DNA from: Candidatus Moraniibacteriota bacterium
Lineage (GTDB): Bacteria > Patescibacteriota > Minisyncoccia > Moranbacterales > UBA1568
NCBI GenBank assembly: GCA_037142915.1
Contig: JBAWZR010000001.1
Span: 1-49,383 of the forward strand
Direction of reading: 5' to 3'
DNA length: 49,383 bases
The notes under the pieces were generated by a model. The model worked only from the letters and a program-made list of their open reading frames with translations, ran no database searches and was not told where the DNA came from. Below are positions 25,953 to 43,818 of this stretch, in pieces (position 1 is the first letter of the stretch; every line of letters starts with the position of its first letter). Position numbers and translations under genes: made by a program.

Positions 25953-25990
25953 GAAAATATTTTTAGAGCATAGATTTAAGATGAAATAAT

Positions 25991-27795: not shown

Positions 27796-27819
27796 AGATT
27801 ATAATTTTAGTTTCACCTT

Positions 27820-28503: not shown

Positions 28504-28518
28504 ATGGAGGAAAATCCT

Positions 28519-28662: not shown

Positions 28663-28705
28663 GGGCGTATTAACGCTCAGGAAGTATGGCCATACTGACT
28701 GGCAT

Positions 28706-28737
28706 GGCGGGGGAGACTTTGTTTCCCTCGCCATTTT
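28706..28737 (+). terminator. hairpin between peptide and radical SAM gene (attenuator candidate)
   Basis: GGCGGGGGA-gactttgtt-TCCCTCGCC (9 bp, one G-U), then ATTTT. The T-tract is weak. Confidence 0.4.
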
Positions 28738-28766
28738 CATAGCACATTACAAATTGAAGGAGAACA

Positions 28767-30125
28767 GTGATGATTTTTTCGCGCTATTTAAGAACTTTAG
28801 AACGAAGCGGAACAATGGCAGTCTTTCACGCTTTGAAACCCATTCCCGCTTTTGTGGACACGACCGCATGGCAGAACTTCTGTCAGTCAATGGATGACGA
28901 AGCTCTGCGTTCGTGGCTCGATGGGCAGGGGTTATTAGTGGAAAGTGAGGTTGAAGACGATTTGTTTCGTGATGCGATTATCGAGGAAACTTTGACGAAG
29001 CGGATGATGTCGATTCTGTACTTGGTACTGACGAAGGCATGCAATTTTCGATGTCGCCAATGCTTCCAACCCGAGCGCCATCCACAAGATCATCTTGAAC
29101 TGGCGGGGGCGGCTTCGTTAATGACCAAAGAGACGGCGATGCTTGGCATCGACGCTTTTGCGCGTCATCTCAATGAGTCTGAGGCAGACGGTTTGGAACC
29201 GCAGATTTATTTCTACGGTGGTGAGCCTTTGTTAAATTGGGATGTATTGGTGGATGCCGTTGAGTATGTCGAGTTGTTGCGTGGTCGAGAACTACCCGAG
29301 GAGATCGGCTTTGTCGTGATTACCAACGGGTCGCTCGTGGATCATGAAAAGGCGGACTTCTTCGCCCGACATAATATCGGAGTCGGGTTGTCGATAGATG
29401 GGCCGAAAGAGAAAAACGATGCTTTCCGTATTTTGGCCCATGGTCAAGGAACTTACGACAAGATTGTTTCAGTTTTGCGTATCCTCCAAGAGCATAACGT
29501 CGGCGTGACACTTTCTATCACCATCAATCCAAATATAGCTAACGACCTGCCAGGGATTATCCAGTGGGCGAAAGAAGAACTCGGTGTCGATTCTGTCAGC
29601 TTCAATATGGTTGGCGGAGGCAGTTACGCTCATACCGGTGCCGAGTTTTCTTTGGAAGCATATAACGATATGGTGGCGACTGGTTTGGTGGAAGCTTATC
29701 AATTGGCACGGAACATCGGATTACACGAAGATCGTGTTGGTAGAAAGGCGGAGGACTTCATTTACCATTCGTTCAAGGCGGTCGATTGTGGCGCAGTCAA
29801 TAATCAGTTGGTTATTCAGCCAGACGGATTGATTGCCTTCTGTCACGCTTCAACCGAGTACAATGTCGGGTCGGTGCGGGATCCCGAGTTTCGGATTTTC
29901 GGACACCCGGCCATCCAAGCATGGGAAGATGTTTTACCGATTCACAATCCGAAGTGTCAAAGTTGTCCGGCAATGTCCATTTGCGGGTACGGTTGTTTCC
30001 ATCATATGTTGGAATTGGAGCGTCCGCTCGCAGATGGAGACGACCAGTTTTGCTTACATACGAGGCGAGTCATGGACTTTCTCGTGTGGGATTTGCTGGC
30101 GCAATCGCAACAGCAGGAAGAGTAA
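28767..30125 (+). CDS. radical SAM enzyme with C-terminal SPASM-type auxiliary cluster domain
   Basis: LTKACNFRCRQCF contains the CxxxCxxC motif. The C-terminus CQSCPAMSICGYGCFH is SPASM-like. The start is GTG 28767 or ATG 28770, after GAAGGAG. Confidence 0.85.
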   Translation: MMIFSRYLRTLERSGTMAVFHALKPIPAFVDTTAWQNFCQSMDDEALRSWLDGQGLLVESEVEDDLFRDAIIEETLTKRMMSILYLVLTKACNFRCRQCFQPERHPQDHLELAGAASLMTKETAMLGIDAFARHLNESEADGLEPQIYFYGGEPLLNWDVLVDAVEYVELLRGRELPEEIGFVVITNGSLVDHEKADFFARHNIGVGLSIDGPKEKNDAFRILAHGQGTYDKIVSVLRILQEHNVGVTLSITINPNIANDLPGIIQWAKEELGVDSVSFNMVGGGSYAHTGAEFSLEAYNDMVATGLVEAYQLARNIGLHEDRVGRKAEDFIYHSFKAVDCGAVNNQLVIQPDGLIAFCHASTEYNVGSVRDPEFRIFGHPAIQAWEDVLPIHNPKCQSCPAMSICGYGCFHHMLELERPLADGDDQFCLHTRRVMDFLVWDLLAQSQQQEE

Positions 30126-30166
30126 TCGGCAACATAAGCTTCAACGAGAGCAGTGTATAATAGAGA

Positions 30167-30204
30167 CCTTGGTTTTTCGCAAGAAAGACCAGGGCTCTTT
30201 TTTT
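30167..30204 (+). terminator. strong intrinsic terminator
   Basis: 12-bp stem CCTTGGTTTTTC-GCAA-GAAAGACCAGGG (two G-U pairs, GNRA loop) followed by CTCTTTTTTT. Confidence 0.75.
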
Positions 30205-30365
30205 GAAAAATAAATTTTTCAATCCAATTATTGCAAAATAGAGAAGACAGGCAATTTGTTTTCACTTATCAACCCCGACTCATAACCGCCTCCATCCGCC
30301 AGAACAACACCTCCCATCTCTTGCCGTTCTCGAGCATTTTTGAGAGGATGAGAGGGAAGTAATCG

Positions 30366-30411
30366 GTTCGAAGTGTATCCCGTCGTCCCCGCCATTGTTA
30401 CGCGAAAGTGA
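30366..30411 (+). repeat. motif B copy 2: tRNA-3'-end-like motif
   Basis: GTTCGAAGTGTATCCCGTCGTCCCCGCCATTGTTACGCGAAAGTGA. It shares GTTCGAA...TCCC...GTCCC(C)GCCAT.GTTACGCGAAAG.GA with 22059-22104. Confidence 0.35.
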
Positions 30412-30591
30412 CATTTAGTGAAAAAACAGTTTCTCTGAAAAACAAAAACCCCTTGCGGGGAAGCTGCCCAAAAGACTTGTATCGTCTCGACTCTAGCCAA
30501 CCGATGGATGGGAACATCGAGAACAGTCTCTCAAGGACTTATGCCTATCGTTAGTATATGAGATATCGGGAAATTTAGCAAGAAAAATCAC

Positions 30592-30890
30592 AAAAAGAAG
30601 CTTTTATAAAAGAAAAAATGAAGATTAACTTTTGGGGTATCCTCTGGTAAACAAATAGTGGCTAAATAAATTCCAACCTTGTCCAAAATTTCCGGCCATT
30701 CGGAACGAGCAGTCGCGCAAGCGTCTGTTTTTGTTTTACTTCTGCAAAAATACGGTATAGAATAGGGGTAAGAGATTTTGAATTCCTCCCCACCTTTGCG
30801 AAGGCGGGGATTGAGGGGCGGTTGAGTTGCATGCGGCTCTGATACAACACCATCCCTCCAGTGGGACAAGAAAGGGCTCTTGAAAGCCAT
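30592..30890 (+). repeat. module A copy 2 (299-nt long form)
   Basis: 30592-30890 aligns with 40977-41275, with a few mismatches in the first 50 nt. It contains hairpin CAGTCGC-GCAA-GCGTCTG (30710-30727) plus a T-tract, TTTACT (30735-30740), 17-nt spacer, TAGAAT (30758-30763), and leader hairpins at 30788-30809 and 30824-30839. It ends 79 nt before ATG 30970. Confidence 0.85.
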
Positions 30891-30969: not shown

Positions 30970-32556
30970 ATGACAAATAAAAAATCAAGTTCTAGTATGA
31001 CCAAAGAGCAGGAGCGTTCAGAGCTCCATCGTGCTATCTGGCAGATTGCCAATGACTTGCGCGGGAGCGTCGATGGTTGGGATTTCAAACAGTATGTACT
31101 CGGGGTGCTTTTTTATCGCTTCATTAGTGAGAATCTGACCAATTATATCAACGCTGATGAGCGTCGCGCAGGTAAAAATGATTTTGATTACAGTGCGCTT
31201 TCCGACAAAGAAGCTGAGTTTGGCCGAACTGATACGGTCAAAGAGAAGGGTTTTTATATTCTCCCGAGCGAGCTGTTCATCAATGTCCGCAAGAATGCCC
31301 GTAATGATGCCAACCTAAACGAAACACTTACTGCCGTTTTTCGTAACATTGAAAGTTCCGCCAGAGGTACTGAAAGCGAGCCTGATCTCAAGGGTTTATT
31401 TGATGATCTTGATGTAAATTCTAATAAACTGGGAAGCACGGTAGAGAAACGAAATCAGAGACTCACGAAACTCTTTGAATCTATTGGCGACCTTCGTCTC
31501 GGTGATTACGCCGACAACACTATCGATGCTTTCGGTGATGCGTATGAGTTCTTGATGACGATGTATGCCTCCAATGCAGGGAAGTCGGGTGGTGAATTTT
31601 ATACCCCGCAGGAAGTAAGCGAGCTCTTGGCCGAGATCACCACGGTTGGCAAGACAGAAGTGAACAAAGTCTATGACCCCGCTTGCGGTTCGGGATCACT
31701 GCTTCTCAAGTTCGCCAAAGTACTCGGCAAGGAAAACGTGCGCCAAGGTTTCTACGGGCAGGAGATCAACCTCACTACCTACAACCTCTGCCGTATCAAT
31801 ATGTTTTTGCACGACATCAACTATAATAATTTCGACATCGCTCACGGTGATACACTCATAGATCCAAAGCACTGGGATGATGAACCGTTTGACGCTATCG
31901 TTTCCAATCCGCCATATTCTATCCGATGGGAGGGCGACGCTAATCCGCTTCTGATCAATGATCCGCGTTTTTCACCTGCGGGAGTGCTTGCGCCAAAGAG
32001 TAAAGCTGACCTCGCCTTTACGATGCATATGCTCTCGTGGCTCTCGACGAGCGGCACGGCGGCGATTGTTGAATTTCCCGGCGTTCTCTATCGTGGCGGT
32101 GCGGAGGGTAAAATAAGAAAGTATCTGGTAGATAACAACTACATCGATGCGGTCATCCAGCTCCCACCCGATCTCTTCTTTGGTACGACTATCGCGACCT
32201 GTGTCATCGTGATCAAAAAGAGCAAGAAGGATAATAAGACGCTCTTTATTGATGCTTCTGCTGAGTTTGTGCGAGGGGGTAACAAAAATAAATTGAGCGA
32301 GGGCAATCGTCTCAAGATTTTAGATGCATTCAGTACTCGCAAAGATGCAGAATATTTTGCCAAGCTGGTAGATAACAAGACTATTGCCGATAATGACTAC
32401 AATATCGCCGTATCCAGCTATGTTGTGGGTGAAGATACTCGCGAAGTAGTGGATATTACAGAACTCAATATAAAAATCACCAAGATTGTCGCCAGACAAA
32501 ATGAACTCCGCACGGCGATTGATGAAATTGTGGCAGATATTGAGGGGACAAAATAA
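30970..32556 (+). CDS. hsdM: Type I restriction-modification system, DNA methyltransferase subunit
   Basis: HsdM N-terminal domain (LHRAIWQIANDLRGSVDGWDFKQYVLGVLFYRFISE), SAM motif VYDPACGSGSLLL, and catalytic SNPPYS. The start could also be ATG 30997. Confidence 0.95.
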   Translation: MTNKKSSSSMTKEQERSELHRAIWQIANDLRGSVDGWDFKQYVLGVLFYRFISENLTNYINADERRAGKNDFDYSALSDKEAEFGRTDTVKEKGFYILPSELFINVRKNARNDANLNETLTAVFRNIESSARGTESEPDLKGLFDDLDVNSNKLGSTVEKRNQRLTKLFESIGDLRLGDYADNTIDAFGDAYEFLMTMYASNAGKSGGEFYTPQEVSELLAEITTVGKTEVNKVYDPACGSGSLLLKFAKVLGKENVRQGFYGQEINLTTYNLCRINMFLHDINYNNFDIAHGDTLIDPKHWDDEPFDAIVSNPPYSIRWEGDANPLLINDPRFSPAGVLAPKSKADLAFTMHMLSWLSTSGTAAIVEFPGVLYRGGAEGKIRKYLVDNNYIDAVIQLPPDLFFGTTIATCVIVIKKSKKDNKTLFIDASAEFVRGGNKNKLSEGNRLKILDAFSTRKDAEYFAKLVDNKTIADNDYNIAVSSYVVGEDTREVVDITELNIKITKIVARQNELRTAIDEIVADIEGTK

Positions 32557-32557
32557 T

Positions 32558-33802
32558 ATGACTAAACATGTAAGCAAAATTGAAAAGTTAATCACTGAGT
32601 TCTGCCCGAAAGGGGTGAAATACAGGGAGTTAGTGGAACTCGGCGATTTTTATGGTGGACTGTCTGGAAAGAGCAAGGACGATTTTAGTAATGGTAACGC
32701 AAAATTTGTTACCTACATGAATATTTTTTCTAACATCGCAGTAAACACAGACATCAACACTTTTGTAAAAATGGGCAACGAAGAAAATCAGAATAAAATT
32801 GAATACGGCGATGTGTTGTTTACAGGATCATCAGAAACGCCAAACGAGTGTGGAATGTCATCCGTTTTGACAAGGGAGACTGATGAGTCATTGTATCTGA
32901 ATAGTTTTTGTTTTGGTTTTCGCTTACATGACAAAAATTTGTTTTTGCCGGAATTTTTAAAATATTTGTTCAGGGATGAACAGATGAGAAAACAAATTGC
33001 AAAAACTGCAAGCGGAGTGACAAGATTTAATGTTTCAAAAAAACGATTTGCAAAAATGCTAATTCCTCTTCCACCGCTTGCGGTGCAGGAAGAAATTATT
33101 AAGGCACTTAATAATTTTACAGAGCTGGAAGCAGAGCTAGAAGCAGAGCTTGAAGCAAGGAAGAAGCAATATGAGTATTATCGGGAGGAGTTGCTGACGT
33201 GTGATCAGAAAATAAATAGGAAGACATTGGGAGAAGCAAGCCTTTCAACTAATAATATTAAATGGAAAGACACAAATGGAACTTATAAGTATATAGACTT
33301 AACTTCCGTGAGTCGAGGAGATCATAGTATTTATGGGGCTGTTGAAATTAATGCTAATAGTGCACCTAGTCGGGCGCAAAAAATAATACATAAGGATGAT
33401 GTAATTTTTGCAACTACACGACCAACATTACGCCGTTTTACGCTTATTGGTGATAACTTTGACGGACAAATTGCTAGTACTGGTTATTGTGTACTAAGAG
33501 CGAATAAGGATGTAGTTTTACCGAAATGGATTTATTTTAATATTGCATCGAGTGTTTTCAATGATTATGTTGAAAAAAATCAAGAAGGATCTGCATATCC
33601 ATCAATTTCTGATGCAAAAGTAAAAGCGTTTATAATTCCAGTTCCACTCATTGCCGAACAAGAACGCATTGTGAAGATTTTAGATAAATTTGATGCTCTT
33701 GTGAACGACATTTCAATCGGTTTACCGGCGGAGCTTTCGGCTCGCAGACAGCAATATGAATACTATCGGGGTAAGCTTTTAACTTTCAAGAAAATGATAT
33801 GA
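32558..33802 (+). CDS. hsdS: Type I R-M specificity subunit
   Basis: Two target-recognition halves separated by conserved helices (LPPLAVQEEIIKALN...ARKKQYEYYREELL and PLIAEQERIVKILD...ARRQQYEYYRGKLL). ATG 32558 lies 1 nt after the hsdM stop. Confidence 0.9.
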   Translation: MTKHVSKIEKLITEFCPKGVKYRELVELGDFYGGLSGKSKDDFSNGNAKFVTYMNIFSNIAVNTDINTFVKMGNEENQNKIEYGDVLFTGSSETPNECGMSSVLTRETDESLYLNSFCFGFRLHDKNLFLPEFLKYLFRDEQMRKQIAKTASGVTRFNVSKKRFAKMLIPLPPLAVQEEIIKALNNFTELEAELEAELEARKKQYEYYREELLTCDQKINRKTLGEASLSTNNIKWKDTNGTYKYIDLTSVSRGDHSIYGAVEINANSAPSRAQKIIHKDDVIFATTRPTLRRFTLIGDNFDGQIASTGYCVLRANKDVVLPKWIYFNIASSVFNDYVEKNQEGSAYPSISDAKVKAFIIPVPLIAEQERIVKILDKFDALVNDISIGLPAELSARRQQYEYYRGKLLTFKKMI

Positions 33803-34827
33803 AAAAAGAATTACAAAACCAAATAATTATTTACGAAGGTGATGATGGAGAATCTCACATAGATGTGAGGTTTGAAGGTGAGACTGTTTGGCTTACACAG
33901 GCGCAATTGGTTGAGCTTTTTCAATCCAGTAAAGCCAACATCAGTGAACATATTAAAAATATCTATACAGAGAAAGAATTAACCACGGAAGCAACTGTTC
34001 GGAATTTCCGAACAGTTCAAAAAGAGGGTGGCAGAGAGGTTTCTAGGGATATTGAACACTACAATCTTGATCTCATCATATCGCTTGGTTACAGAGTGAA
34101 ATCACATGTTGCTACAAAATTCCGTATTTGGGCAACCGCACGACTTCGTGAATATATCGTCAAAGGTTTTACTATTGATTCGGATCGTTTGAAAAATTTG
34201 GGCGGTGGGAATTATTGGAAAGAATTACTCGATGAAATTCGAGATATTCGTAGCAGTGAAAAGGTGCTGTATCGTCAGGTGCTTGATTTGTATGCAACCG
34301 CTATCGATTATGACTCTCAAGCAAACGAGTCTTTGAAATTTTTTAAAATTGTCCAAAATAAGCTCCATTTTGCGGCTCATGGACATACGGCAGCGGAAGT
34401 AATTTATTTGCGGGTTGATTCGGATAAGCCATTCGTAGGGCTTACAAATTTCAAGGGCAAGCAACCTACTCAAACCGAAGCTATGGTTGCTAAAAACTTT
34501 TTGGAATTAAGTGAGCTGAAAATTTTAAATAATCTTGTTTCGGCTTATTTTGATTTGGCTGAAATTAATGCCATGGAACAAAAACCGATGAAGATGGCGG
34601 ATTACATCCGTGAGTTGGACAATATTTTAAAATCAACAGGCAGAAAACTTTTGAGCGATGCCGGAAAAATAAGCCATGAAAAAGCAATAGAGAAAGTCGA
34701 AAAAGAATATCGCAAATACCAAGTAAAGACCTTGTCTTCAGTGGAGAAAGATTATTTGGATGCTATAAAAGTAACAGAAAAAAAGATTGTTAAAAAAGTT
34801 AAATCAAATAAGAAATATGCCAAATAA
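33799..34827 (+). CDS. rhuM: RhuM-family protein embedded in the Type I R-M operon
   Basis: IIIYEGDDGESHIDVRFEGETVWLTQAQLVELFQSSKANISEHIKNI...RNFRTVQKEG...YNLDLIISLGYRVKS matches the RhuM pattern. It overlaps hsdS (4 nt) and hsdR (11 nt). Confidence 0.8.
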   Translation: MKKELQNQIIIYEGDDGESHIDVRFEGETVWLTQAQLVELFQSSKANISEHIKNIYTEKELTTEATVRNFRTVQKEGGREVSRDIEHYNLDLIISLGYRVKSHVATKFRIWATARLREYIVKGFTIDSDRLKNLGGGNYWKELLDEIRDIRSSEKVLYRQVLDLYATAIDYDSQANESLKFFKIVQNKLHFAAHGHTAAEVIYLRVDSDKPFVGLTNFKGKQPTQTEAMVAKNFLELSELKILNNLVSAYFDLAEINAMEQKPMKMADYIRELDNILKSTGRKLLSDAGKISHEKAIEKVEKEYRKYQVKTLSSVEKDYLDAIKVTEKKIVKKVKSNKKYAK

Positions 34828-37800
34828 TAATGGATACAATTTAGTTGCAGAAAATCCGCAAAGTACTGTGGTTGCTGAATACTATAAACCTGCAGAAATG
34901 GTGCGAGATGGTTCTTCTTACCAGAGCGAGGCAGATCTGGAGCGCGCTTTTATTAAGCAACTTGAGACGCAAGCGTACGAATATCTTGCCATCATCTCTG
35001 AAGCTGATTTGGTGGCAAACCTCCGAGTGCAACTGGAGAAGCTTAATAATTTTACTTTTACCGATACCGAATGGGAGCATTTCTTTGCCAGTGAGCTCGC
35101 CAACCCAAATCAAAGCATTGCCGAAAAGACCGCCACCATTCAAGAAGATCCCATCAAAAACCTGACGCGTGAGGATGGAACGGTCAAAAATGTCTATCTC
35201 ATCAAAAAGGATAATATTCACGACAACAGTTTGCAGGTGATCAATCAATATGCCACAGAAGAAGGTCAGCGCGCCAATCGTTATGATGTGACGGTGCTGG
35301 TGAACGGCTTGCCGATGGTGCATATCGAGCTCAAACGGCGAGGCGTAGCCATTCAGGAAGCATTCAATCAGATCAACCGGTATCATCGAGAAAGTTTTTG
35401 GGCTTCGGCCGGTCTTTTCGAATATGTACAACTCTTCGTCATTTCCAACGGAACACATACAAAGTATTACAGCAACACTACGCGCAAAGAGCATATCAAG
35501 GAAACGAGTGAGGGTGCGGTGAAAAAAGGGAAGCGATCGAGTAGTAGTTTTGAGTTCACCAGCTGGTGGGCAGATGCTACCAATCGACCAATTACGGACT
35601 TGATGGATTTCGCCAAGACATTTTGTGCGAAGCATACACTTTTGAATATCTTGACTCGCTATTGCGTGTTTACTACGGATAAACAACTGTTAGTAATGCG
35701 CCCGTATCAAATCGTAGCGACGGAGCGAATATTGAGTCGCATCGAAGTCAGTACGAATTACAAGAAGCTCGGCACGGTAGAGGCGGGTGGGTATATTTGG
35801 CATACAACTGGATCAGGAAAAACATTGACCAGCTTCAAAACAGCACAACTTGTGAGTAAGTTGCCGTATATCGATAAAGTGGTTTTTGTTGTCGACCGCA
35901 AAGACTTGGACTACCAGACGATGAGGGAATATGACAAGTTCGAAAAAGGCGCGGCTAATAGCAATACGAGCACGGCGATTTTAGCCCATCAGCTGGAAAA
36001 TCCGAATGCGCGCATCATCATCACTACTATTCAGAAGCTGGATCGTTTTATTGGGCGCAATACAGGGCACAATATTTTTGACGGCCATGTCGTATTGATC
36101 TTTGATGAATGCCATCGTTCGCAGTTTGGCGATATGCACTCTGCCATTACCAAGACATTTAAGAATTATCATCTTTTTGGTTTTACCGGTACGCCGATTT
36201 TTGCCATGAATGCGTCTTCCGGAGGACGACCGGATTTGAAAACCACTGAGCAAGCGTTTGGAGAAAAACTGCACACCTACACTATCGTGAATGCCATAGC
36301 AGATAAAAATGTCCTGCCGTTTAAGGTTGATTATGTTTCTACGGTTCGTGAGGCTGAGAATATCGAAGATAAGAAAGTGAGCGATATCGATCGAGAGGCG
36401 GTGCTTGCGTCGTCGGAGCGCCTAGCAAATATTGTCAAATATATTCGTGAGCATTTCGACCAAAAGACCAAGCGGAATACTTTTTATAAATTAAAGGATC
36501 GTAGATTGGCTGGGTTTAACTCCATCTTTGCGGTTTCGTCTATTGATGTCGCCAAGAAATACTATGCTGAGTTCAGAAAACAGCTTACAGATGTGCCGAG
36601 TGACAGGCGACTCAAGGTAGCAACGATTTATAGCTTTGGGGTGAATGACGAGGATGCTGATGGAATGGTAGATGAAAACTCCGAGGATACGAGCGGGCTT
36701 GATGTGAGTTCACGGGATTTCCTAGATGGGGCTATCAAGGATTACAATGCTATGTTTGGAACATCCTACGATACTTCGTCTGATAAGTTTCAGAATTATT
36801 ACAAGGATGTCAGTCAACGAGTAAAAAATCGTGAGATCGATATCCTCATCGTGGTCAATATGTTTTTGACTGGTTTTGATGCAACAACGCTCAATACGCT
36901 CTGGGTAGATAAAAACCTGCGTTTGCACGGACTATTGCAAGCATACTCACGAACGAATCGTATTTTAAACAGCGTGAAGAGTTTTGGGAATATCGTGTGT
37001 TTTCGCAATCTGGAAAAAGCAACCAACGAATCGATCGCGCTCTTTGGCGATAAAGAAGCGGGCGGTATTGTTCTTCTTAAGTCGTATGAGGAGTATTACC
37101 ATGGATACAAAGATGGTGAAAAAGAAGTGCGCGGGTATGCGAGCTTAGTATCAGAGCTTTTGGAGAGATTCCCAGTCGGCGAACCCATTATTGGCGAACA
37201 AAACCAAAAAGACTTCATCAAGCTTTATGGAGCGATTTTGCGAGTACGCAACATCTTGGTAGCTTTTGATGAGTTTGCTGGTAATGAGATTTTATCCCCG
37301 CGTGATATTCAGGATTACCATAGTGCCTATATTGATCTCTATAACGAGTTTCGTAAAGGCAAGGAAGACGAAAAGGAGAATATCAATGACGACCTTGTTT
37401 TTGAAATGGAGCTTATCAAACAGGTCGAGATAAATATTGATTATGTGCTTGGCCTTATTAAGCAATACCACGAAGACCATATCAAGAACCGCGAGCTTCT
37501 GGTTGATATCAACAAGGCGATAGACTCAAGCGTTGAATTGCGTAATAAAAAAGATTTGATCAATCAATTCATTACTACGCTCGATGTCAATTCGATGGTG
37601 GATGAAGATTGGCAGAAGTTTGTTGAAGGGAAGAAGGTTGAAGAGCTTGAGAAAATTATTGCCAATGAGAATCTTGATCGTGATGCTACCTATACGTTTA
37701 TACGTAATGCATTCCGTGACGGGAGCGTATCAACGACTGGTACAGCTATCACTGGAGTTCTCCCGCCAGTCTCTCGATTTTCTCCAACAGGAGAACGAAC

Positions 37801-37885
37801 CAAGAAACGAGAGAGTGTATTGGATAAACTAACGAGTTTCTTCGAACGATTCTTCAGTATCTCTGGGGGTAAGTTTTCAGAATAA
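34817..37885 (+). CDS. hsdR: Type I restriction enzyme, endonuclease/helicase subunit
   Basis: N-terminal nuclease region (YDVTVLVNGLPMVHIELKRR), SF2 motifs (HTTGSGKTLTSF, LIFDECHRSQ, FGFTGTP), and a C-terminal helical domain. ATG 34817. Confidence 0.95.
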   Translation: MPNNNGYNLVAENPQSTVVAEYYKPAEMVRDGSSYQSEADLERAFIKQLETQAYEYLAIISEADLVANLRVQLEKLNNFTFTDTEWEHFFASELANPNQSIAEKTATIQEDPIKNLTREDGTVKNVYLIKKDNIHDNSLQVINQYATEEGQRANRYDVTVLVNGLPMVHIELKRRGVAIQEAFNQINRYHRESFWASAGLFEYVQLFVISNGTHTKYYSNTTRKEHIKETSEGAVKKGKRSSSSFEFTSWWADATNRPITDLMDFAKTFCAKHTLLNILTRYCVFTTDKQLLVMRPYQIVATERILSRIEVSTNYKKLGTVEAGGYIWHTTGSGKTLTSFKTAQLVSKLPYIDKVVFVVDRKDLDYQTMREYDKFEKGAANSNTSTAILAHQLENPNARIIITTIQKLDRFIGRNTGHNIFDGHVVLIFDECHRSQFGDMHSAITKTFKNYHLFGFTGTPIFAMNASSGGRPDLKTTEQAFGEKLHTYTIVNAIADKNVLPFKVDYVSTVREAENIEDKKVSDIDREAVLASSERLANIVKYIREHFDQKTKRNTFYKLKDRRLAGFNSIFAVSSIDVAKKYYAEFRKQLTDVPSDRRLKVATIYSFGVNDEDADGMVDENSEDTSGLDVSSRDFLDGAIKDYNAMFGTSYDTSSDKFQNYYKDVSQRVKNREIDILIVVNMFLTGFDATTLNTLWVDKNLRLHGLLQAYSRTNRILNSVKSFGNIVCFRNLEKATNESIALFGDKEAGGIVLLKSYEEYYHGYKDGEKEVRGYASLVSELLERFPVGEPIIGEQNQKDFIKLYGAILRVRNILVAFDEFAGNEILSPRDIQDYHSAYIDLYNEFRKGKEDEKENINDDLVFEMELIKQVEINIDYVLGLIKQYHEDHIKNRELLVDINKAIDSSVELRNKKDLINQFITTLDVNSMVDEDWQKFVEGKKVEELEKIIANENLDRDATYTFIRNAFRDGSVSTTGTAITGVLPPVSRFSPTGERTKKRESVLDKLTSFFERFFSISGGKFSE

Positions 37886-38009
37886 GCTACGAATACGTTT
37901 CTCGAGATGGAAAACCACCAAAGAAGAGCTCAATGATTTCATTCTGTCGTACGAGGACTGGGGGAGATAAATAGTGAGCGTGGGTAGGAGGGTATTTATA
38001 AGAAAAAAT

Positions 38010-38588
38010 ATGCACCGAAAACCATTTTTAGAAATTGTAGAACAGTATAGAATTACTGCCCCTTCCGATGAATATGTCGTTATTGACGAGTTGGTACAGT
38101 ACGTAGCGTCTCGAGAGGATTGTTTTGAAAGGAAACACGAAGAAGGCGCGAAACACATTGCAACATCTGTTTTGCTGGTAACGCCGGATTTTAAGAAGGC
38201 GCTCTTTTTGTGGCATAGTAAGATACAATGCTGGGCGCAACCCGGCGGACATGCAGACGGTGATTCAGATATTCATGCCGTGGCTTTGAAAGAACTTGAG
38301 GAGGAAACGGGAGTGACGGGTGCAACACTTGCATCACCTATCCCTCTTGATATCTATCGATTTGATTATGCGCCCGAGGTTTTCGGCTATCGAAAAAGTA
38401 TTTACAACCTCTTTTTCGTGGTGGTTCTTCCGACAGATCAAGAACCGAAGATTATGGAACTCGACAAGTGCGAGGCAATACGTTGGGCTACACCCGATGA
38501 AGCGTTAGAAATGATAAAAGGAATACCTCATGAGGGTACTGAAAGACTGATTCGAAAATGGCAGACTTTTGCTAAAAATAAAAAATAA
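38010..38588 (+). CDS. Nudix hydrolase
   Basis: Nudix box GGHADGDSDIHAVALKELEEETGV. ATG 38010 is preferred over GTG 37974. Confidence 0.8.
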   Translation: MHRKPFLEIVEQYRITAPSDEYVVIDELVQYVASREDCFERKHEEGAKHIATSVLLVTPDFKKALFLWHSKIQCWAQPGGHADGDSDIHAVALKELEEETGVTGATLASPIPLDIYRFDYAPEVFGYRKSIYNLFFVVVLPTDQEPKIMELDKCEAIRWATPDEALEMIKGIPHEGTERLIRKWQTFAKNKK

Positions 38589-38627
38589 AAAGAGAGGTCG
38601 GATATATCCAAACCTCTCAATAATGCT

Positions 38628-39302
38628 TTAGTCGTTTTTTATAGCCAATATCCACAAGTGTTTTTCAGTGCTTCCATAGTCCTTCTCGTTGAGGGCTTTG
38701 AGAATCGTGAACCCGCATTGTGAAATAATATCCTTATTCGTTTCGGTATCAAAGTAACTCCAAGCCATTTTTGATTTGCAAAAGACATCTCTTTCTTTGT
38801 AGTCAACATCTTCGGTGCCGACAGTGATAAGCAGATGGCCGCTTGGTTTAAGGGTTGATGCTATTTTTGAAATCACTTCGGTATGTCGGTCTCGCGGAAT
38901 ATGAAAGAGCGCGTAAAGTGAAATGACGGCATCGAATTGCTCTTTCGGGAATGGATAATCAAGGAAATCTCCTAAGATATACTTTGTCTGCGGGACATTA
39001 TTGCGCGCCATGTCAATGTGTTTTTCCGATATGTCTATACCGGTAACATCATACCTCATTTGGATGAGATAGAGGTCGTAGGGAATACCCGGACCCGATC
39101 CAAGATCCAATACTTCCGATCCCTGTTTAAGTGTTTGCGTAAGTCCTTCGAAGAATAGTTTTTCAAAGGGAGTGAGTGAAAGTCTGTTTCTGTATACATC
39201 GGCGTAATCGCCTTCATCATAACCAGCTTTCACGGTATATTGACAGTATTGTGTAGTGTGGTATCCTACCTGTGTTGAGCAATTATATTTTTGTTTGACC
39301 AA
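38628..39302 (-). CDS. class I SAM-dependent methyltransferase
   Basis: EVLDLGSGPGIPYDL motif I, DVTGIDISEKHI, and AVISLYALFHIP. Apparent TTG start at 39302. Confidence 0.75.
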   Translation of the reverse strand: MVKQKYNCSTQVGYHTTQYCQYTVKAGYDEGDYADVYRNRLSLTPFEKLFFEGLTQTLKQGSEVLDLGSGPGIPYDLYLIQMRYDVTGIDISEKHIDMARNNVPQTKYILGDFLDYPFPKEQFDAVISLYALFHIPRDRHTEVISKIASTLKPSGHLLITVGTEDVDYKERDVFCKSKMAWSYFDTETNKDIISQCGFTILKALNEKDYGSTEKHLWILAIKND

Positions 39303-39519
39303 TATTGCTTAATAAGTGGTATTGAGTGGTATTAAATCCAAGATATTACGAATCTTAGATTTATCGGTGGTGTATAGCTTTGTGTACCCACCATATCATA
39401 TTGCAGTTCTTTAAAAGAGATTTTTTGAATCAAGTACATTTCGTTTCGTGCTTCTTTCATTAAATAAATAGTGCTGGTGCAAATCAGTGTTTTGTAAATT
39501 TAAAAAAGAGGATCCTCTA

Positions 39520-39987
39520 ATGGAAAATTTTGAAGCTTCTAAGTTTGCGGATTTTGACCTAGGCATGATCAGGTTAAAGCTGACTCATCCTGAAGAAGGT
39601 GAAGGTTGGTCGAAGGAATTCGCTGATGCGGTTGAGAAAGACTATCGACGTTTTTTGTACCTCAACGCAAAATATAAAGGTGCTGTGCTTGTGCCATCAA
39701 AATTAGTTGATAAGTACTGGCATTCGCATATTTTGGATACGCGAAAATATGCCCATGATTCAAATATGCTTTTCGGCGAATTCTTCCATCATTTTCCATA
39801 TTTCGGCATACGCGGAGCTGAAGATGAGGTGATGCATAGAAATGCTTTCGCCAATACTCAGCAGTTGTGGCTGAAAGAATTTGGAAAAATGCAAGATTCT
39901 CACACTAGCATACCTTTTTCCAGGGAAGCGTCAACCTGTCAAGGTGTTTGCTGTTGTGACGTTGTATCCTACAAAGAAGCAGCTTGA
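39520..39987 (+). CDS. GRDP/DUF1399-like protein with Cys-rich C-terminal tail
   Basis: LVDKYWHSHILDTRKYAHDSNMLFGEFFHHFPYFG is paralogous to 20189..20698. The C-terminal tail is EASTCQGVCCCDVVSYKEAA. ATG 39520 follows AAGAGGA. Confidence 0.6.
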   Translation: MENFEASKFADFDLGMIRLKLTHPEEGEGWSKEFADAVEKDYRRFLYLNAKYKGAVLVPSKLVDKYWHSHILDTRKYAHDSNMLFGEFFHHFPYFGIRGAEDEVMHRNAFANTQQLWLKEFGKMQDSHTSIPFSREASTCQGVCCCDVVSYKEAA

Positions 39988-40013
39988 TAATATTTGAGCC
40001 TTACCACCCCTTT

Positions 40014-40045
40014 AAACGGCACTGAATTTAGTGCCGTTTCTTACT
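40014..40045 (+). terminator. intrinsic terminator
   Basis: 10-bp stem AAACGGCACT/AGTGCCGTTT, followed by a T-rich tail. Confidence 0.6.
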
Positions 40046-40067
40046 TTATATATCGTTTGAAATATCT

Positions 40068-40934
40068 ATGAAATTTGAAAATGAATTAGAGAATAATAAA
40101 GATGTTTCTTGCGTCGAACTTGTTGACTTTGGTGGTGTAATTAATGGTGCAGAGAAAAAAGAGCAACGGAAAATTAAAGAGTTACTTGTTTTGGCAGAGA
40201 CATATAGGTTTTTATACGCTGTAAATTCAAAAAAGGTAGTTGGCTATATTTCTATACCAAAACATGTAACTCATGCCCCGTGTCTTATTCATCTGCGTGG
40301 CGGCGGCGGTGATTTTAGCATGTTACAAGAATCTTCTATTCTGGAAAAGCTTGTTAAGTTTTCCATGGAGGGATATGTCGTAATAACAACGCAATACCCA
40401 GGTGTTGAAGGTGGAGACGGATCCGATGCTTACGGCGGTCAGGAGGATATTTTAAGTATCATAAAGCTCAAAGATATTCTTGAGTCGATTTCAGTGGCAG
40501 ACACCAGAAAAATAGGTGTTAAGGGTCATTCGCGAGGAGGACTCATGGCATATATGCTTCTAAGAAAAGTTGATTGGGTTACCTGTGCTGTTATCGGGAG
40601 CGCGCCAGTGGATCAAATACAGCTAGTAAGGGAGCGCAGTGAATGGAGAGAATATCAAATTTCAATGTGGGGTTATTCAAAGAACGATGCTATTGATAGA
40701 TCCCCTATATACTGGTCACGTGATCTGCCTGAAAATAGTCCATTATTGCTGGTTCATGGATCTTCCGATGAAAGAGTGGACGTTTCGCATTCATTGCGAA
40801 TGAATGCGAGTTTAGATGAGTTATCAATCCCTCATGAATTTATTTTATTCGAAGGCGATGATCATGGTATAACCAGGCATAAGCAAGAATATTTTGATCG
40901 AACACTGAATTGGTTTAATCGATTTTTAAGATAA
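40068..40934 (+). CDS. alpha/beta hydrolase, S9 prolyl-oligopeptidase / dienelactone-hydrolase-like
   Basis: Nucleophile elbow GVKGHSRGG, LLVHGSSDERVD, and GDDHG suggest a Ser-Asp-His triad arrangement. Confidence 0.7.
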   Translation: MKFENELENNKDVSCVELVDFGGVINGAEKKEQRKIKELLVLAETYRFLYAVNSKKVVGYISIPKHVTHAPCLIHLRGGGGDFSMLQESSILEKLVKFSMEGYVVITTQYPGVEGGDGSDAYGGQEDILSIIKLKDILESISVADTRKIGVKGHSRGGLMAYMLLRKVDWVTCAVIGSAPVDQIQLVRERSEWREYQISMWGYSKNDAIDRSPIYWSRDLPENSPLLLVHGSSDERVDVSHSLRMNASLDELSIPHEFILFEGDDHGITRHKQEYFDRTLNWFNRFLR

Positions 40935-40976: not shown

Positions 40977-41275
40977 AAAAAGAGGCTTTTATAAAGGAAA
41001 AAATGAAGATTAACCTTTAGGGTATCCTCTGGTAAACAAATAGTGGCTAAATAAATTCCAACCTTGTCCAAAATTTCCGGCCATTCGGAACGAGCAGTCG
41101 CGCAAGCGTCTGTTTTTGTTTTACTTCTGCAAAAATACGGTATAGAATAGGGGTAAGAGATTTTGAATTCCTCCCCACCTTTGCGAAGGCGGGGATTGAG
41201 GGGCGGTTGAGTTGCATGCGGCTCTGATACAACACCATCCCTCCAGTGGGACAAGAAAGGGCTCTTGAAAGCCAT
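40977..41275 (+). repeat. module A copy 3 (299-nt long form)
   Basis: Aligns to 30592-30890 and, for the core 41110-41275, to 22139-22304. TTTACT 41120-41125 and TAGAAT 41143-41148. It ends 92 nt before ATG 41368. Confidence 0.85.
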
Positions 41276-41367
41276 CCGCATCGGGGAGCGCAAGGCGAGA
41301 AGGTATCGCAAGGAGGATATTCTGAAGATGATTGAGGATAAATAAAAACAAAATATATTATATTACT

Positions 41368-43818
41368 ATGGCGATCAAGAAATCTCAACTGTACAGCTCT
41401 ATATGGAAAGCGTGTGATGAATTGCGTGGCGGAATGGATGCATCGCAGTATAAGGACTATGTGTTGGTACTTTTATTTGTCCGGTATGTATCCGACAAAT
41501 ACAGTAATCTTGAGGATTCGTTGGTGGAAATTCCAAAGGGTGGTGGCTTTGTAGATCTTATTGCACTCAAAGGGACAACGGATATTGGAAGCGGTATCAA
41601 TATAGTGTTGTCGAAATTGGCAAGCGCCAACGGACTTGTCGGTGTGATAGATCAAGTGGATTTTGATGATGAAGACAAACTTGGAAAGGGTAAGGAAATG
41701 CAAGATCGTCTTTCTGCATTGATTGGTATATTTGAAAATGCGGATTTGGATTTTAGTAAGAACCGCGCTGAAGGGGATGATCTTTTGGGCGATGCCTATG
41801 AGTATTTGATGAAACATTTTGCGGTGCAATCAGGAAAAAGCAAGGGTCAATTCTATACTCCAGCAGAAGTATCGCGCATTATGGCAAAGGTGATCGATGC
41901 TCGGCATTCATCCGGACAAACACAAACCGTGTACGATCCAGCATGCGGGAGTGGCTCGCTTCTCTTGAAAGTTGCCGATGAAGCGCACAAAGGTATCACT
42001 ATTTACGGGCAAGAATTGGACAATGCCACTGCCGGATTGGCCGTCCTGAATATGTGGCTTCACGGGAGAGCTATTTCCACCATCAAGAAAGGGCAGAGTA
42101 CGCTTTCCGATCCTCTTTTTACTGAGAATAGGGAGCTCAAAACATTTGATTATGTAGTTGCCAATCCGCCTTTCTCTTCAAAAAATTGGCGCAACGGTTT
42201 TGATCCTTCCAATGATACATACGATCGTTTTGACGGCTATGGTATCCCGCCCGAGAAAAATGGCGATTACGCTTTTTTGCTTCACATTCTCAAGTCATTA
42301 AAAAGCACGGGAACGGGTGCAGTCATTTTGCCTCACGGTGTTTTGTTTCGTGGCAATGTGGAGGCGGATATTCGCACCAACATCATCCATCGCGGATATA
42401 TCAAAGGTATCATTGGTTTGCCTGCCAATCTTTTCTATGGCACGGGTATTCCGGCTTGTATTATCGTGTTGGACAAAGCGGGCGCAGGGGAGCGCAAGGG
42501 GATTTTTATGATCGATGCTTCCAAAGGATTCGTCAAAGACGGCAACAAAAACCGTCTGCGTGAGCAAGACATCCGCAAGATCACAGATGCGTGGAGCAAT
42601 GCTTTAGAAATTCCAAAATACTCCCGTTTCGTTTCCAATGAGGAAATTCACAAAAACGAATACAATCTCAATCTTCCTCGGTATATTGATACGCAAGCGC
42701 CCGAAGATATTCAAGATATCGAGGCTCATCTCAAAGGTGGTATTCCTGATGGCGATATCGAAATCCTCGCTCCGTATTGGCAGGTCTGTCCGACGCTCAA
42801 GAAAGCGCTTTTCAAAAAGAACGGTCGAGCGGGGTATAGTGAGATGCTCATCGCGCACGACGAGGTCAAGAAAACCATCCTCACACATCCCGAATTTCTG
42901 ACATTCAAAAAACAAACCCTTGCAACCTTTACCGAGTGGAAAGAAATATCGACGCCATTTTTCAAAGCACTCTCGCAAAAGGATCACCCTAAGGCTATCA
43001 TCTCAACCATTACCGAAACACTCTTGCAACACTGCGCAGATTTTCGTTTGATTGACAAATATGACCTCTATCAACACCTGATGAATTATTGGGAAGAGAC
43101 GATGCAAGACGATGCGTATGTCATCACGGTGGACGGCTGGCAAGCAGGCAAGGAATTGATGCGTATGCAAAAAGAAACCAAAAACAAAGGCAAGAACGTC
43201 AAAAAAACGGTGCCGGGACTCTATGGTCTTGAAGGGCGATTGGTGCCGATCGAACTTGCCATCGAAACCTATTTTTCCAAAGAGCAATCTGCACTCGATG
43301 CGCTCATTATCGCATTGGAGCAAACAGGTGCCGATATGGAAGCATTCAAAGATGAACACGGAGGCGAGGATGGTCTGCTTGCCGAGGTGATCGAGAATGA
43401 CAAGATTAAAAAAATTGATGTGCAAAAACGCATCAAGATGATCAAAAAGAGCAAGGCTGATGCCGAGGAGTTGGCAGTGCTTGAGTTGTATCTTGCGCTC
43501 TTTGAAAAAGAAACCGCAACCAAACAATTCATCAAAGATGCCGAGAAGGATTTGGAGAACAAACTCTTGGCGAAGTACCCGACACTTTCAGAAGAAGAAA
43601 TCAAGACACTGACTATCGATAAAAAATGGATGGGTGAATTGACCATGCGGGTAACGGGCGAGGTGGATCGCTTGTCGCAAACCCTTGCCGGAAGGGTCAA
43701 GGAATTGGCGGAGCGTTATGAGACACCCTTGCCGATCATTAAGCGGGAAGTGGAAACATTGACCGAGAAAGTCGAGCAACATCTGACAAAGATGGGTTTT
43801 GATGTGACAAAACTATGA
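41368..43818 (+). CDS. hsdM: Type I R-M DNA methyltransferase subunit (long form with coiled-coil C-terminal extension)
   Basis: SQLYSSIWKACDELRGGMDASQYKDYVLVLLFVRYVSDKY, VYDPACGSGSLLL, and VANPPFS. 816 aa. Confidence 0.95.
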   Translation: MAIKKSQLYSSIWKACDELRGGMDASQYKDYVLVLLFVRYVSDKYSNLEDSLVEIPKGGGFVDLIALKGTTDIGSGINIVLSKLASANGLVGVIDQVDFDDEDKLGKGKEMQDRLSALIGIFENADLDFSKNRAEGDDLLGDAYEYLMKHFAVQSGKSKGQFYTPAEVSRIMAKVIDARHSSGQTQTVYDPACGSGSLLLKVADEAHKGITIYGQELDNATAGLAVLNMWLHGRAISTIKKGQSTLSDPLFTENRELKTFDYVVANPPFSSKNWRNGFDPSNDTYDRFDGYGIPPEKNGDYAFLLHILKSLKSTGTGAVILPHGVLFRGNVEADIRTNIIHRGYIKGIIGLPANLFYGTGIPACIIVLDKAGAGERKGIFMIDASKGFVKDGNKNRLREQDIRKITDAWSNALEIPKYSRFVSNEEIHKNEYNLNLPRYIDTQAPEDIQDIEAHLKGGIPDGDIEILAPYWQVCPTLKKALFKKNGRAGYSEMLIAHDEVKKTILTHPEFLTFKKQTLATFTEWKEISTPFFKALSQKDHPKAIISTITETLLQHCADFRLIDKYDLYQHLMNYWEETMQDDAYVITVDGWQAGKELMRMQKETKNKGKNVKKTVPGLYGLEGRLVPIELAIETYFSKEQSALDALIIALEQTGADMEAFKDEHGGEDGLLAEVIENDKIKKIDVQKRIKMIKKSKADAEELAVLELYLALFEKETATKQFIKDAEKDLENKLLAKYPTLSEEEIKTLTIDKKWMGELTMRVTGEVDRLSQTLAGRVKELAERYETPLPIIKREVETLTEKVEQHLTKMGFDVTKL

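What the first reader, a model, noticed from the sequence alone, without database searches (positions are those of the whole stretch)
40977..41367. Module A copy 3 directly upstream of Type I R-M system 2; direct repeats 8.6 and 10.4 kb apart could drive cassette deletion or exchange
- The third copy (299 nt, near-identical to copy 2) precedes hsdM-2.
- Three long direct repeats in one island are substrates for homologous recombination. Recombination would excise or duplicate whole defence blocks (22.3-30.9 kb and 30.9-41.3 kb).
- Each block would keep the same promoter and leader.
- This gives a cassette-like organisation without any integron integrase or attC-like sites visible.
Basis: inference. 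Interest (0 to 1): 0.6.

Follow-up and report, generated by a model that had tools for sequence, protein, structure and literature searches.

The report
Repeated operon head between defence blocks
The third copy of a repeated promoter plus broken regulator gene sits in front of a restriction system in an uncultured lake bacterium. Contigs from other samples of the same lakes join the neighbouring gene blocks differently at exactly these repeats, so the repeats probably do mediate loss and exchange of defence blocks, though only read pairs or long reads can prove it.

Summary
Window 40977-41275 matches copy 2 at 295 of 299 bases (256 consecutive identical) and shares a perfect 145-nt core with copy 1. 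Spacings are 8586 and 10385 nt.

The module is an operon head. It has a terminator hairpin, a sigma-70-like promoter and a disabled copy of a 67-aa HTH_17 (excisionase-family) leader gene. This leader gene family heads restriction and defence operons across Patescibacteria. Here the first 23 codons are replaced by the promoter, and a 51-nt palindromic insertion carries a stop codon.

Perfect cores joined to diverged 3' remnants point to recombination, probably gene conversion. Other assemblies from the same lake system show three variant junctions:
- copy 1's left flank joined through the core to hsdM-2;
- block 1 headed by an intact leader gene with a different left neighbour;
- block 2 followed by a different head and gene.

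One relative genome has a 284-nt, 97% head repeat before two adjacent restriction cassettes.

Caveats:
- All junction evidence comes from short-read contigs that can be chimeric across the repeat.
- In the two deep samples the blocks sit at about single-copy depth.
- No recombinase was found in the window.

The recombination idea is therefore supported but not proven. [quoted passage not shown]

The parts
40977..41122 (+). 'Tail' part of the module (LF3). It is shared only with copy 2 (30592-30737, 4 mismatches) and ends in the terminator.
   Evidence: The same 146 nt is followed by a different head in contig L004.
41095..41122 (+). Intrinsic-terminator-like hairpin (CAGTCGC-GCAA-GCGTCTG) followed by TTTTTGTTTT. 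It closes the preceding block.
   Evidence: Read from the sequence. Copy 1 has a different stem (CAGCCTC-ATAA-GGGGCTG) that still pairs, so the hairpin is kept through changes on both sides.
41120..41148 (+). Sigma-70-like promoter, TTTACT-17-TAGAAT, identical in all three copies.
   Evidence: 9 of 12 matches. It differs from the promoter of intact leader genes, TTGCGT-17-TAAACT.
41110..41254 (+). Core that is letter-identical in all three copies (equals 22139-22283 and 30725-30869).
   Evidence: In run X1 it forms one 145-nt unitig at depth 52, about the sum of the three flanks.
41170..41212 (+). Best-conserved part of the GC-rich palindromic insertion. The insertion is 51 nt net, in frame, with a TGA, and interrupts the leader ORF.
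   Evidence: The same 43 nt (one mismatch) lies in the atpE-atpF spacer of contig L186. The depth of L186 tracks the window across four runs.
41247..41345 (+). 3' remnant of the HTH_17 leader gene (WDKKGLLKAIRIGERKARRYRKEDILKMIEDK, then stop). It has no usable start codon.
   Evidence: It is 56% identical to residues 36-67 of the intact 67-aa protein of L019.
41368..43818 (+). hsdM-2, the first gene of Type I R-M system 2. hsdS, a Fic gene and hsdR follow.
22139..22375 (+). Copy 1: the core plus its own leader-gene remnant, in front of the helicase-nuclease gene (ATG at 22380).
   Evidence: The remnant is 100% identical to residues 36-67 of the intact gene in L019.
30592..30890 (+). Copy 2: tail plus core, in front of hsdM-1. 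Its leader remnant is further decayed.
22380..30591 (+). Block 1, between copies 1 and 2.
   Evidence: The block is contiguous in L010 and L020.
30997..40934 (+). Block 2, between copies 2 and 3: Type I R-M system 1 plus four accessory genes.
   Evidence: The block is contiguous in L004.

Best explanation
Copy 3 is one of three copies of an operon head in the defence island of an uncultured Patescibacteria bacterium related to Moranbacteria.

**What the module contains**
- A tail segment with a terminator that closes the preceding block.
- A promoter.
- A roughly 220-nt leader that is a disabled copy of a small HTH_17 (excisionase-family) leader gene.

**How the leader gene was disabled**
In intact form this gene is 67 aa long and lies 1-7 nt ahead of restriction-modification and other defence genes across the Patescibacteria. 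In this genome the first 23 codons were replaced by a new promoter. The rest was split by a 51-nt palindromic repeat element that carries a stop codon.

**How the copies arose**
This broken head was then copied onto three operons that each had their own diverged leader gene. The likely route is homologous recombination or gene conversion. That step is inferred from perfect cores joined to diverged 3' remnants, and from different tract ends in different strains.

**What the copies do now**
The module drives hsdM-2 (function inferred, not measured). As 145-299-nt direct repeats, the copies are substrates for RecA-type recombination that can delete or swap whole blocks. Contigs from other samples carry junctions of exactly that kind, so exchange at the module has probably happened in the population. 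In the two samples where this genome is abundant, the array looks stable and single-copy.
For: **Repeat anatomy**
-.

**Leader-gene remnants**
- The remnants are in frame with a TGA.
- An intact 67-aa HTH_17 gene sits in front of the same helicase gene in L019. It is 100% identical to copy 1 from 22297 onward.

**The leader family**
- 29 close homologues.
- 371 confirmed loci in species representative genomes; the 80 kept are mostly labelled Patescibacteria.
- The downstream gene is an R-M or defence gene in most of 65 cases: N6_Mtase 13, ResIII 14, N6_N4_Mtase 10, SNF2 9, HsdM_N 7, HamA 1.
- Examples are L023 and L024.

**Mosaic structure and conversion tracts**
- Copy 1 versus copy 3 remnants are 56% identical at protein level, behind a 100% identical core.
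- In strain L015 the identity with the core ends about 25 nt earlier, and its sequence there is closer to the native gene.
- Within a genome the heads are near-identical. Between genomes they are only 64-83% identical at nucleotide level.

**Variant junctions**
- L012 consists of 19809-22283 joined to 41255-41802.
- The same hybrid appears as a 622-nt k=31 unitig in run X3, which runs without a break from copy 1's left flank to copy 3-specific bases.
- L004 and an X3 unitig both go from the tail segment into a different head and gene.

**Parallel case in a relative**
- L118.

**Palindromic element elsewhere, probably in the same genome**
-.
Against: **Junction evidence is weak in kind**
- All variant junctions come from short-read de Bruijn assemblies. 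The identical tract (145 nt) exceeds k=141 by four bases and k=31 by far.
- A pruned graph at low coverage (run X3 is about 4x) could produce the copy 1/copy 3 hybrid as a chimera.
- L012 and the X3 unitig may come from the same sample.
- L004 ends in adapter sequence. Its alternative head could belong to a fourth tail copy elsewhere in the genome.

**The array looks stable where it is abundant**
- In X1 and X2, blocks 1-3 are at 0.8-1.2 times the depth of the neighbouring core genes. Excision or deletion is not frequent there.

**Other limits**
- No circular junction was seen.
- Tandem heads are rare in relatives (1 of 80).
- Promoter activity, and the role of the intact HTH protein, are untested.
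- The window's own order of blocks at copies 2 and 3 is unverified.
Confidence: 0.6

Rival explanations
1. The repeats are real but inert. They are simply three copies of a shared promoter and leader. Every 'variant junction' is an assembly chimera, or belongs to other strains whose differences arose by ordinary horizontal gain of genes rather than by recombination between these copies.
For: - Contigs of all assemblies break at, or thread ambiguously through, the core.
- The 145-nt identity is longer than both k values used.
- X3 coverage is about 4x.
- Blocks are single-copy in X1 and X2.
Against: - Two of the three variant junctions (L019 and L004) involve sequence that is absent from the window, so they cannot be mis-joins between the window's own copies.
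- In X3 the tail runs into the alternative head, and the core has a single entry and exit. That is three expected parental junctions missing and two alternative ones present.
- Perfect cores joined to 56%-identical remnants require recombination at some time.
Confidence: 0.22
2. Copies 2 and 3 arose when Type I R-M system 1 (block 2) inserted with a long target duplication. This is the mode described for mobile restriction-modification units by Furuta, Abe and Kobayashi. On this reading the repeats are a scar of insertion and not the product of gene conversion.
For: - Block 2 is an R-M unit flanked by 299-nt direct repeats at 98.7% identity.
- Such flanking repeats are enriched around R-M systems and can drive amplification (PMC2853133).
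Against: - The unit between the repeats carries four unrelated genes besides the R-M system.
- Copy 1 shares only the core, not the tail.
- The three downstream leader remnants are diverged paralogues, which fits overwriting of pre-existing heads better than one duplication.
- I found no clean empty site of the form block 1-tail-core-hsdM-2.
Confidence: 0.1
3. The array is a site-specific cassette system, integron-like. The module holds recombination sites, the HTH_17 (excisionase-family) protein acts as a directionality factor, and the recombinase is encoded elsewhere.
For: - The intact leader matches the excisionase-family model TIGR01764 and weakly matches the N-terminal region of IS607-type transposases.
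- Each block boundary has a stereotyped tail plus head.
Against: - No integrase or recombinase domain occurs in the window, and there is no tRNA-Asp attachment-site repeat.
- Each block has its own promoter, unlike integron cassettes.
- In 79 of 80 relatives the leader gene is single and simply heads one operon.
- The three leader genes in the window are disabled.
- Crossover positions differ between strains, as expected for homologous and not site-specific exchange.
Confidence: 0.04
4. The identical core is kept by selection as a structured regulatory RNA (a leader or riboswitch-like element) common to the three operons.
For: - 43 nt of the core are 98% conserved in a second locus whose flanks differ.
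- The segment can form a GC-rich hairpin.
Against: - No Rfam family matches, even at E up to 10.
- The predicted folding energy is no better than for shuffled sequence (z = +0.55).
- The second locus is an atpE-atpF spacer that holds two inverted copies of the palindrome. That fits a dispersed repeat element, not a defence-specific leader.
- No homologue of the insertion or the tail occurs in about 80 relatives' heads.
Confidence: 0.04

Closest known systems
Restriction-modification units flanked by long direct repeats (Furuta, Abe and Kobayashi 2010, PMC2853133; amplification shown earlier by Sadykov et al., as cited there)
   Same: A complete Type I R-M system lies between long direct repeats (299 nt) that could mediate its loss, duplication or exchange. 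No transposase or integrase is nearby.
   Different: - The repeats here are not duplicated target DNA. They are homogenised operon heads: terminator, promoter and a broken regulator gene.
- There are three copies, bounding two blocks that also carry non-R-M genes.
- Depth shows no amplification.
Small leader regulators of defence operons: RptR (PMC12255303), controller (C) proteins of Type II R-M systems, BrxR/CapW, and MAD1 of the MADS system
   Same: - The intact relatives of the module's ORF are small HTH proteins encoded as the first gene, a few bases ahead of R-M and defence genes.
- There is a weak PADLOC match to mad1 (E = 6e-9).
   Different: - The fold family differs: HTH_17, excisionase/MerR-like, versus the RptR helical dimer or Xre-type C proteins.
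- The NCBIfam MAD1 score is 16 bits against a cut-off of 80.
- In the window all three copies are disabled, so any control must act in trans or is lost.
- DNA binding and regulation are untested.
Integron gene-cassette arrays
   Same: A tandem series of accessory-gene blocks is separated by a repeated boundary element.
   Different: - No integrase and no attC-type sites were found.
- Each block has its own promoter and terminator.
- Exchange, if real, is by general homologous recombination.
REP/MITE-like palindromic repeat elements
   Same: The 51-nt insertion is a GC-rich palindrome. It also occurs in a housekeeping intergenic spacer (atpE-atpF), there as two inverted copies.
   Different: - Only two independent sites are known so far.
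- No associated transposase or target duplication has been identified.

Membership tests
R-M unit flanked by long direct repeats (Kobayashi type) | A complete R-M gene complex bracketed by direct repeats much longer than transposon target duplications | tested here: met
   hsdM-S-(RhuM)-hsdR at 30997-37885 lies between 30592-30890 and 40977-41275. The repeats match at 295 of 299 bases.
R-M unit flanked by long direct repeats (Kobayashi type) | An empty site with a single repeat copy in a related genome | tested here: inconclusive
   L012 and the X3 unitig have one core between block 0 and hsdM-2, but they lack both blocks and could be chimeric. I found no contig of the form block 1-core-hsdM-2.
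R-M unit flanked by long direct repeats (Kobayashi type) | Amplification of the unit through the repeats | tested here: not met
   Block 2 depth is 16-21 in X1 and 10-15 in X2. The neighbouring core genes are at about 21 and 14.
Integron cassette array | An integron integrase next to the array | tested here: not met
   No recombinase domain appears in any ORF of the window (Pfam).
Integron cassette array | Promoterless cassettes, each ending in an attC site | tested here: not met
   Each block starts with its own promoter and the previous block ends with a terminator. No inverted repeat of 40 nt or more was found.
Leader or controller regulator of defence operons (C protein / RptR / MAD1-like) | An intact small DNA-binding gene as the first ORF of the operon | tested here: not met
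   In the window all three ORFs lack the first 23 codons and a start codon, and they carry an in-frame TGA. The feature is met in relatives and in strain variant L019.
Leader or controller regulator of defence operons (C protein / RptR / MAD1-like) | The protein binds its own promoter and controls the operon | not testable with these tools
   This needs EMSA and reporter assays.
HTH_17 / excisionase-family DNA-binding domain | A sequence match above the curated threshold | tested here: met
   The intact homologue P0001 scores 37.1 bits against TIGR01764 (cut-off 28.8). Pfam PF12728 is recorded for all 29 homologues. The window remnants keep only residues 36-67.
Structured cis-regulatory RNA | A match to a known family, or folding or covariation beyond chance | tested here: not met
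   No Rfam hit. The z-score is +0.55. The copies are identical, so no covariation can be read.
REP/MITE-like dispersed palindrome (for the 51-nt insertion) | The same palindromic unit at several unrelated intergenic sites of one genome | tested here: inconclusive
   A second site lies in the atpE-atpF spacer of L186. The depth of L186 tracks the window in four runs. A genome-wide count was not possible.

The most novel reading that the evidence does not exclude
In ultra-small Patescibacteria, defence operons may be built as portable units. Each unit would be headed by a conserved HTH_17 leader gene and closed by a terminator tail. Concerted evolution of these heads within a genome would create long direct repeats. 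Those repeats would let whole defence blocks be lost, reordered or swapped by plain homologous recombination. The result would be a recombinase-free counterpart of an integron, here caught with several alternative arrangements coexisting in one lake system.
Probability: 0.3. Interest if true: 0.6.

Novelty: new variant of a known kind. Interest (0 to 1): 0.45.

Why it matters
Patescibacteria have tiny genomes. From general knowledge, they mostly lack CRISPR and rely heavily on restriction systems.

If their defence operons share a common head that is homogenised within a genome, that head does two things. It gives a common point of expression control, and it gives a built-in route for rapid turnover of defence content without any dedicated recombinase. 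This would help explain strain-level variation in defence islands in uncultured lineages.

The HTH_17 leader family found here has 371 confirmed loci in species representatives. It is also a candidate regulator class for restriction systems that I could not find described in the searched literature.

For genome scanning there is a practical lesson. The island's block order in this metagenome-assembled genome rests on repeats longer than the reads that built it.

Tried and rejected
I could not test which runs hold the intact-leader or alternative-head forms.

**Searches that found nothing**
- Exact 31-mer and 27-mer searches of the core in species genomes and JGI metagenomes gave no hits.
- Rfam found only tRNAs and one DUF3800-V RNA outside the module, at both the gathering and the permissive threshold.
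- No RNA-seq runs were found that could map a transcription start.
- The core's insertion and tail were not found in about 80 relatives' heads.

**Ideas tested and rejected**
- Stable RNA fold: z = +0.55.
- tRNA-Asp attachment-site duplication bounding the island: no repeat of the tRNA 3' end.
- Read-through of the in-frame TGA by an alternative genetic code: rejected because long ORFs throughout the window are intact under table 11.
- Heads as inter-genome recombination adaptors: between genomes the heads are only 64-83% identical at nucleotide level, so this is not supported.

**Inconclusive**
- Depth as evidence for deletion subpopulations: unitig depths are too noisy, and blocks 1-3 are near the baseline.

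Full report
**1. The observation**

The repeat finder returns one three-member direct family, with start-to-start spacings of 8586 and 10385 nt. A three-way alignment and exact extension give the details.
- Copy 3 and copy 2 align over 299 nt (40977-41275 and 30592-30890) with four mismatches. All four lie in the first 45 nt.
- They are letter-identical for 256 nt (41020-41275 and 30635-30890).
- Copy 1 shares a perfect 145-nt core with both (22139-22283, 30725-30869 and 41110-41254).

hsdM-2 starts at the ATG at 41368 and gives an 816-aa protein with HsdM_N and N6_Mtase domains. Gene content of the blocks is also as described.

**2. Source organism**

The window is held at 99% of sampled words by two lake-water metagenome runs, X1 and X2, and in part by several others. 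The UvrA-like protein at 3647-6526 finds its best relatives in Candidatus Moranbacteria genomes, at only 57% identity. This is an uncultured Patescibacteria lineage without a close representative genome.

**3. What the module is**

Reading 5' to 3', the module contains:
- a tail segment found only in copies 2 and 3;
- a hairpin plus T-run that looks like an intrinsic terminator for the preceding block; copy 1 has a different stem sequence that still pairs;
- a sigma-70-like promoter, TTTACT-17-TAGAAT;
- a leader of about 220 nt.

In one frame the leader reads EILNSSPPLRRRGLRGG*VACGSDTTPSLQWDKKGLLKAIRIGERKARRYRKEDILKMIEDK*. The last 32 residues look like the C-terminal half of an excisionase-family HTH. 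There is no start codon, and there is an in-frame TGA.

The missing half turned up in another assembly. Contig L019 (ERZ27300140) carries block 1 at 99.95% identity. Ahead of the helicase gene it has an intact 67-aa gene, MKKQTKPKTIEEYPDILTLTQACELLNCHRNTLRSWDNKGLLKAIRFGTRGDRRFRKEEVVEILKRK. This gene hits HTH_17 and MerR_1, and it is identical to the window from 22297 onward.

Compared with that gene, the window's core shows three changes:
- It keeps codons 24-28 and 31-67.
- It replaces everything upstream with a different promoter.
- It carries a net 51-nt in-frame insertion that contains the stop codon.

Copy 2's remnant is decayed further.

**4. The leader-gene family**

The 67-aa protein has 29 close homologues in the large protein collection. 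A profile search gave 371 confirmed loci in species representative genomes, and the 80 kept are mostly labelled Patescibacteria.

In those 80 loci a same-strand gene usually starts 1-7 nt after the stop codon. Of 65 such downstream proteins, many are restriction or defence proteins:

| Pfam family | Downstream proteins (of 65) |
|---|---|
| ResIII | 14 |
| N6_Mtase | 13 |
| N6_N4_Mtase | 10 |
| SNF2 | 9 |
| HsdM_N | 7 |

Eco57I/MmeI-type methylases, PLD nucleases and HamA also occur. Two close examples head a helicase-nuclease (L023) and a DUF5655 protein (L024).

The protein passes the excisionase-family model TIGR01764. It gives a weak match to MAD1 of the MADS defence system, well below the NCBIfam cut-off.

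In the full-text library I found functional analogues: RptR, a different small repressor that heads Type I R-M islands (PMC12255303), together with C proteins and BrxR as cited in that paper. My searches turned up no paper describing this HTH_17 family as a leader of R-M operons.

This agrees with an earlier agent's note on copy 1 (e1-3368702), which I re-derived independently here.

**5. The insertion**

Logan contigs showed a second locus in X1, X2 and X3 that shares only 43 nt (41170-41212) with the core. A search for its flank retrieved contig L186.

In L186 the segment lies in the spacer between atpE and atpF, as two inverted copies of a GC-rich palindrome of the form CCCCRCC-TTTGCGAA-GGYGGGG. 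L186 has the GC content of the window's core-gene part, about 50%. Its depth tracks the window's across four runs: 19.2, 10.9, about 4.8 and 2-4.

L186 is therefore probably from the same genome, and the insertion is a copy of a dispersed palindromic repeat element. No Rfam family matches the module, and its predicted fold is no better than shuffled sequence.

**6. Evidence that the heads were copied by recombination**

- The remnants downstream of the core are old paralogues. Copy 1's remnant is 100% identical to L019, copy 3's is 56% identical, and yet the cores are identical.
- Copy 1 is a patchwork around the right end of the tract, between the L019-type and copy 3-type alleles.
- In strain L015 the identity with the core stops about 25 nt earlier. 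The sequence beyond that point is closer to the native gene and carries many synonymous-type differences. Tract ends therefore differ between strains.
- Between genomes the heads are 64-83% identical at nucleotide level. Within a genome they are near-identical.
- An independent Moraniibacteriota genome (L118) has two intact heads 1986 nt apart that share 284 nt at 97%, with the promoter at 99%. One stands before an SNF2 fragment plus RhuM. The other stands before an HsdR-like gene, DUF3800 and a methylase-specificity fusion.

Together this is the signature of concerted evolution by gene conversion. The step itself is inferred.

**7. Evidence for rearrangement at the module**

Contigs fetched by exact protein look-up from other assemblies of the same lake system, and what each shows:

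| Contig (assembly) | What it shows |
|---|---|
| L010 (ERZ27300155, 19 kb) | Equals window 11746-30775 with 3 mismatches; supports block 0-copy 1-block 1-tail-core |
| L006 (JGI), L008 (NCBI), L005 (Logan) | Run from block 2 through the tail into the core |
| L012 (ERZ27300181, 3023 nt) | Window 19809-22283 followed by 41255-41802: copy 1's left flank, the core, then copy 3's alleles and hsdM-2. The 19 kb between are absent |
| L019 (ERZ27300140) | Block 1 headed by the intact leader gene, with a different left neighbour (a 154-aa gene on the other strand) |
| L004 (ERZ27300140) | Window 30750-41122 at 100%, then leaves the window at the end of the terminator. It runs into a different promoter, a leader gene that keeps codons 19-64 but lacks the first 18 and a start codon, and an unrelated gene |

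- The L012 hybrid also appears in run X3 as a 622-nt k=31 unitig. It runs unbroken from 21688 through the core to copy 3-specific bases at 41279-41280.
- The L004 junction also appears in X3, as a 289-nt unitig.
- In X3 the core has one way in and one way out, and the tail leads only to the alternative head.
- In X1 the core is a separate 145-nt unitig at depth 52, about the sum of the three flanks. In X2 the tail leads into the core.

Different samples thus appear to hold different arrangements that differ exactly at module boundaries.

**8. Limits of that evidence**

- The identical tract is longer than both k values, and X3 has only about 4x coverage. A pruned graph could therefore thread the wrong flanks.
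- L012 and the X3 unitig may come from one sample.
- L004 ends in adapter sequence, and its alternative head might belong to a fourth tail copy elsewhere.
I could not count spanning reads.
- Depth argues against frequent excision where the genome is abundant:

| Region | Depth in X1 | Depth in X2 |
|---|---|---|
| Neighbouring core genes | about 21 | about 14 |
| Block 1 | 22-26 | 13-18 |
| Block 2 | 16-21 | 10-15 |
| hsdM-2 | 17.8 | 12.6 |
| Block 0 | 30.8 | 21 |

- Only block 0 is higher than the baseline, probably because further strains share it.
- Most other short-read assemblies break at these repeats (L010 runs through copy 1), and two end exactly at the window's last base. The window's order of flanks at copies 2 and 3 is therefore unverified.

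**9. Alternatives considered**

- An integron-like or site-specific system is unlikely. The window has no recombinase and no tRNA-Asp attachment repeat. Each block has its own promoter. In 79 of 80 relatives the leader gene is single.
- Origin of copies 2 and 3 by insertion of the R-M unit with a long target duplication (PMC2853133) remains possible. It fits less well than overwriting of pre-existing heads.
- A structured-RNA reading has no support.

**10. Verdict**

It is best described as a new variant of a known situation, R-M systems bracketed by long direct repeats. Here the repeats are homogenised, disabled copies of a conserved HTH_17 operon head.

It is of moderate interest. The decisive test is simple: spanning reads, long reads or PCR on the lake DNA.

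Noticed in passing
window 427-2508: A reverse-transcriptase gene (RVT_1, 503 aa) is followed by a HEPN-domain gene. This could be an RT-based defence or retroelement pair at the left end of the window.
   Followed up: no
window 30228-30553 (minus strand): A DUF3800-V RNA (Rfam RF02964, 49.9 bits) ends in its own terminator. It is followed by a 61-aa ORF starting MAGTTG. Related start regions (ATGGCSGG...) recur at 22059-22104 and inside both tail segments. About 100 nt of this stretch is 82% conserved after the helicase cassette of L023.
   Followed up: partly
L186 10230-10400 (atpE-atpF spacer): Two inverted copies of the GC-rich palindrome that interrupts the leader gene, in a housekeeping operon of what is probably the same genome. 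This is a candidate dispersed REP/MITE-like element in Patescibacteria.
   Followed up: partly
L118 8001-10190: A Moraniibacteriota genome has two intact HTH_17 heads 2 kb apart (284 nt at 97%). The first is followed by only a 102-aa SNF2 fragment and a RhuM gene, which looks like the product of a past deletion between heads.
   Followed up: partly
window 49383 (end of window): Two independent assemblies (ENA k141_1419500 and JGI Ga0194044_10005147) end at exactly the window's last base, inside hsdR-2. A Logan contig runs on into a YgjP-like metallopeptidase gene. Some repeat or strain break lies there.
   Followed up: no
window 17184-17290 and 17353-17459: A 107-nt direct repeat (95%) lies inside the tRNA cluster (Ile, Met, Met, Asp). 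Logan contigs show several alternative joints among these tRNA genes.
   Followed up: no
window 19272-22168 (block 0): The peptide-modification cluster just left of copy 1 has about 1.45 times the depth of the rest of the contig in X1 and X2. It is probably shared with another co-occurring strain or organism.
   Followed up: no
L186 10814-11081: A roughly 270-nt stretch has depth in the hundreds to thousands in all four runs, with many alternative joints skipping about 100 nt. It is probably a highly conserved or repeated element shared by many organisms.
   Followed up: no
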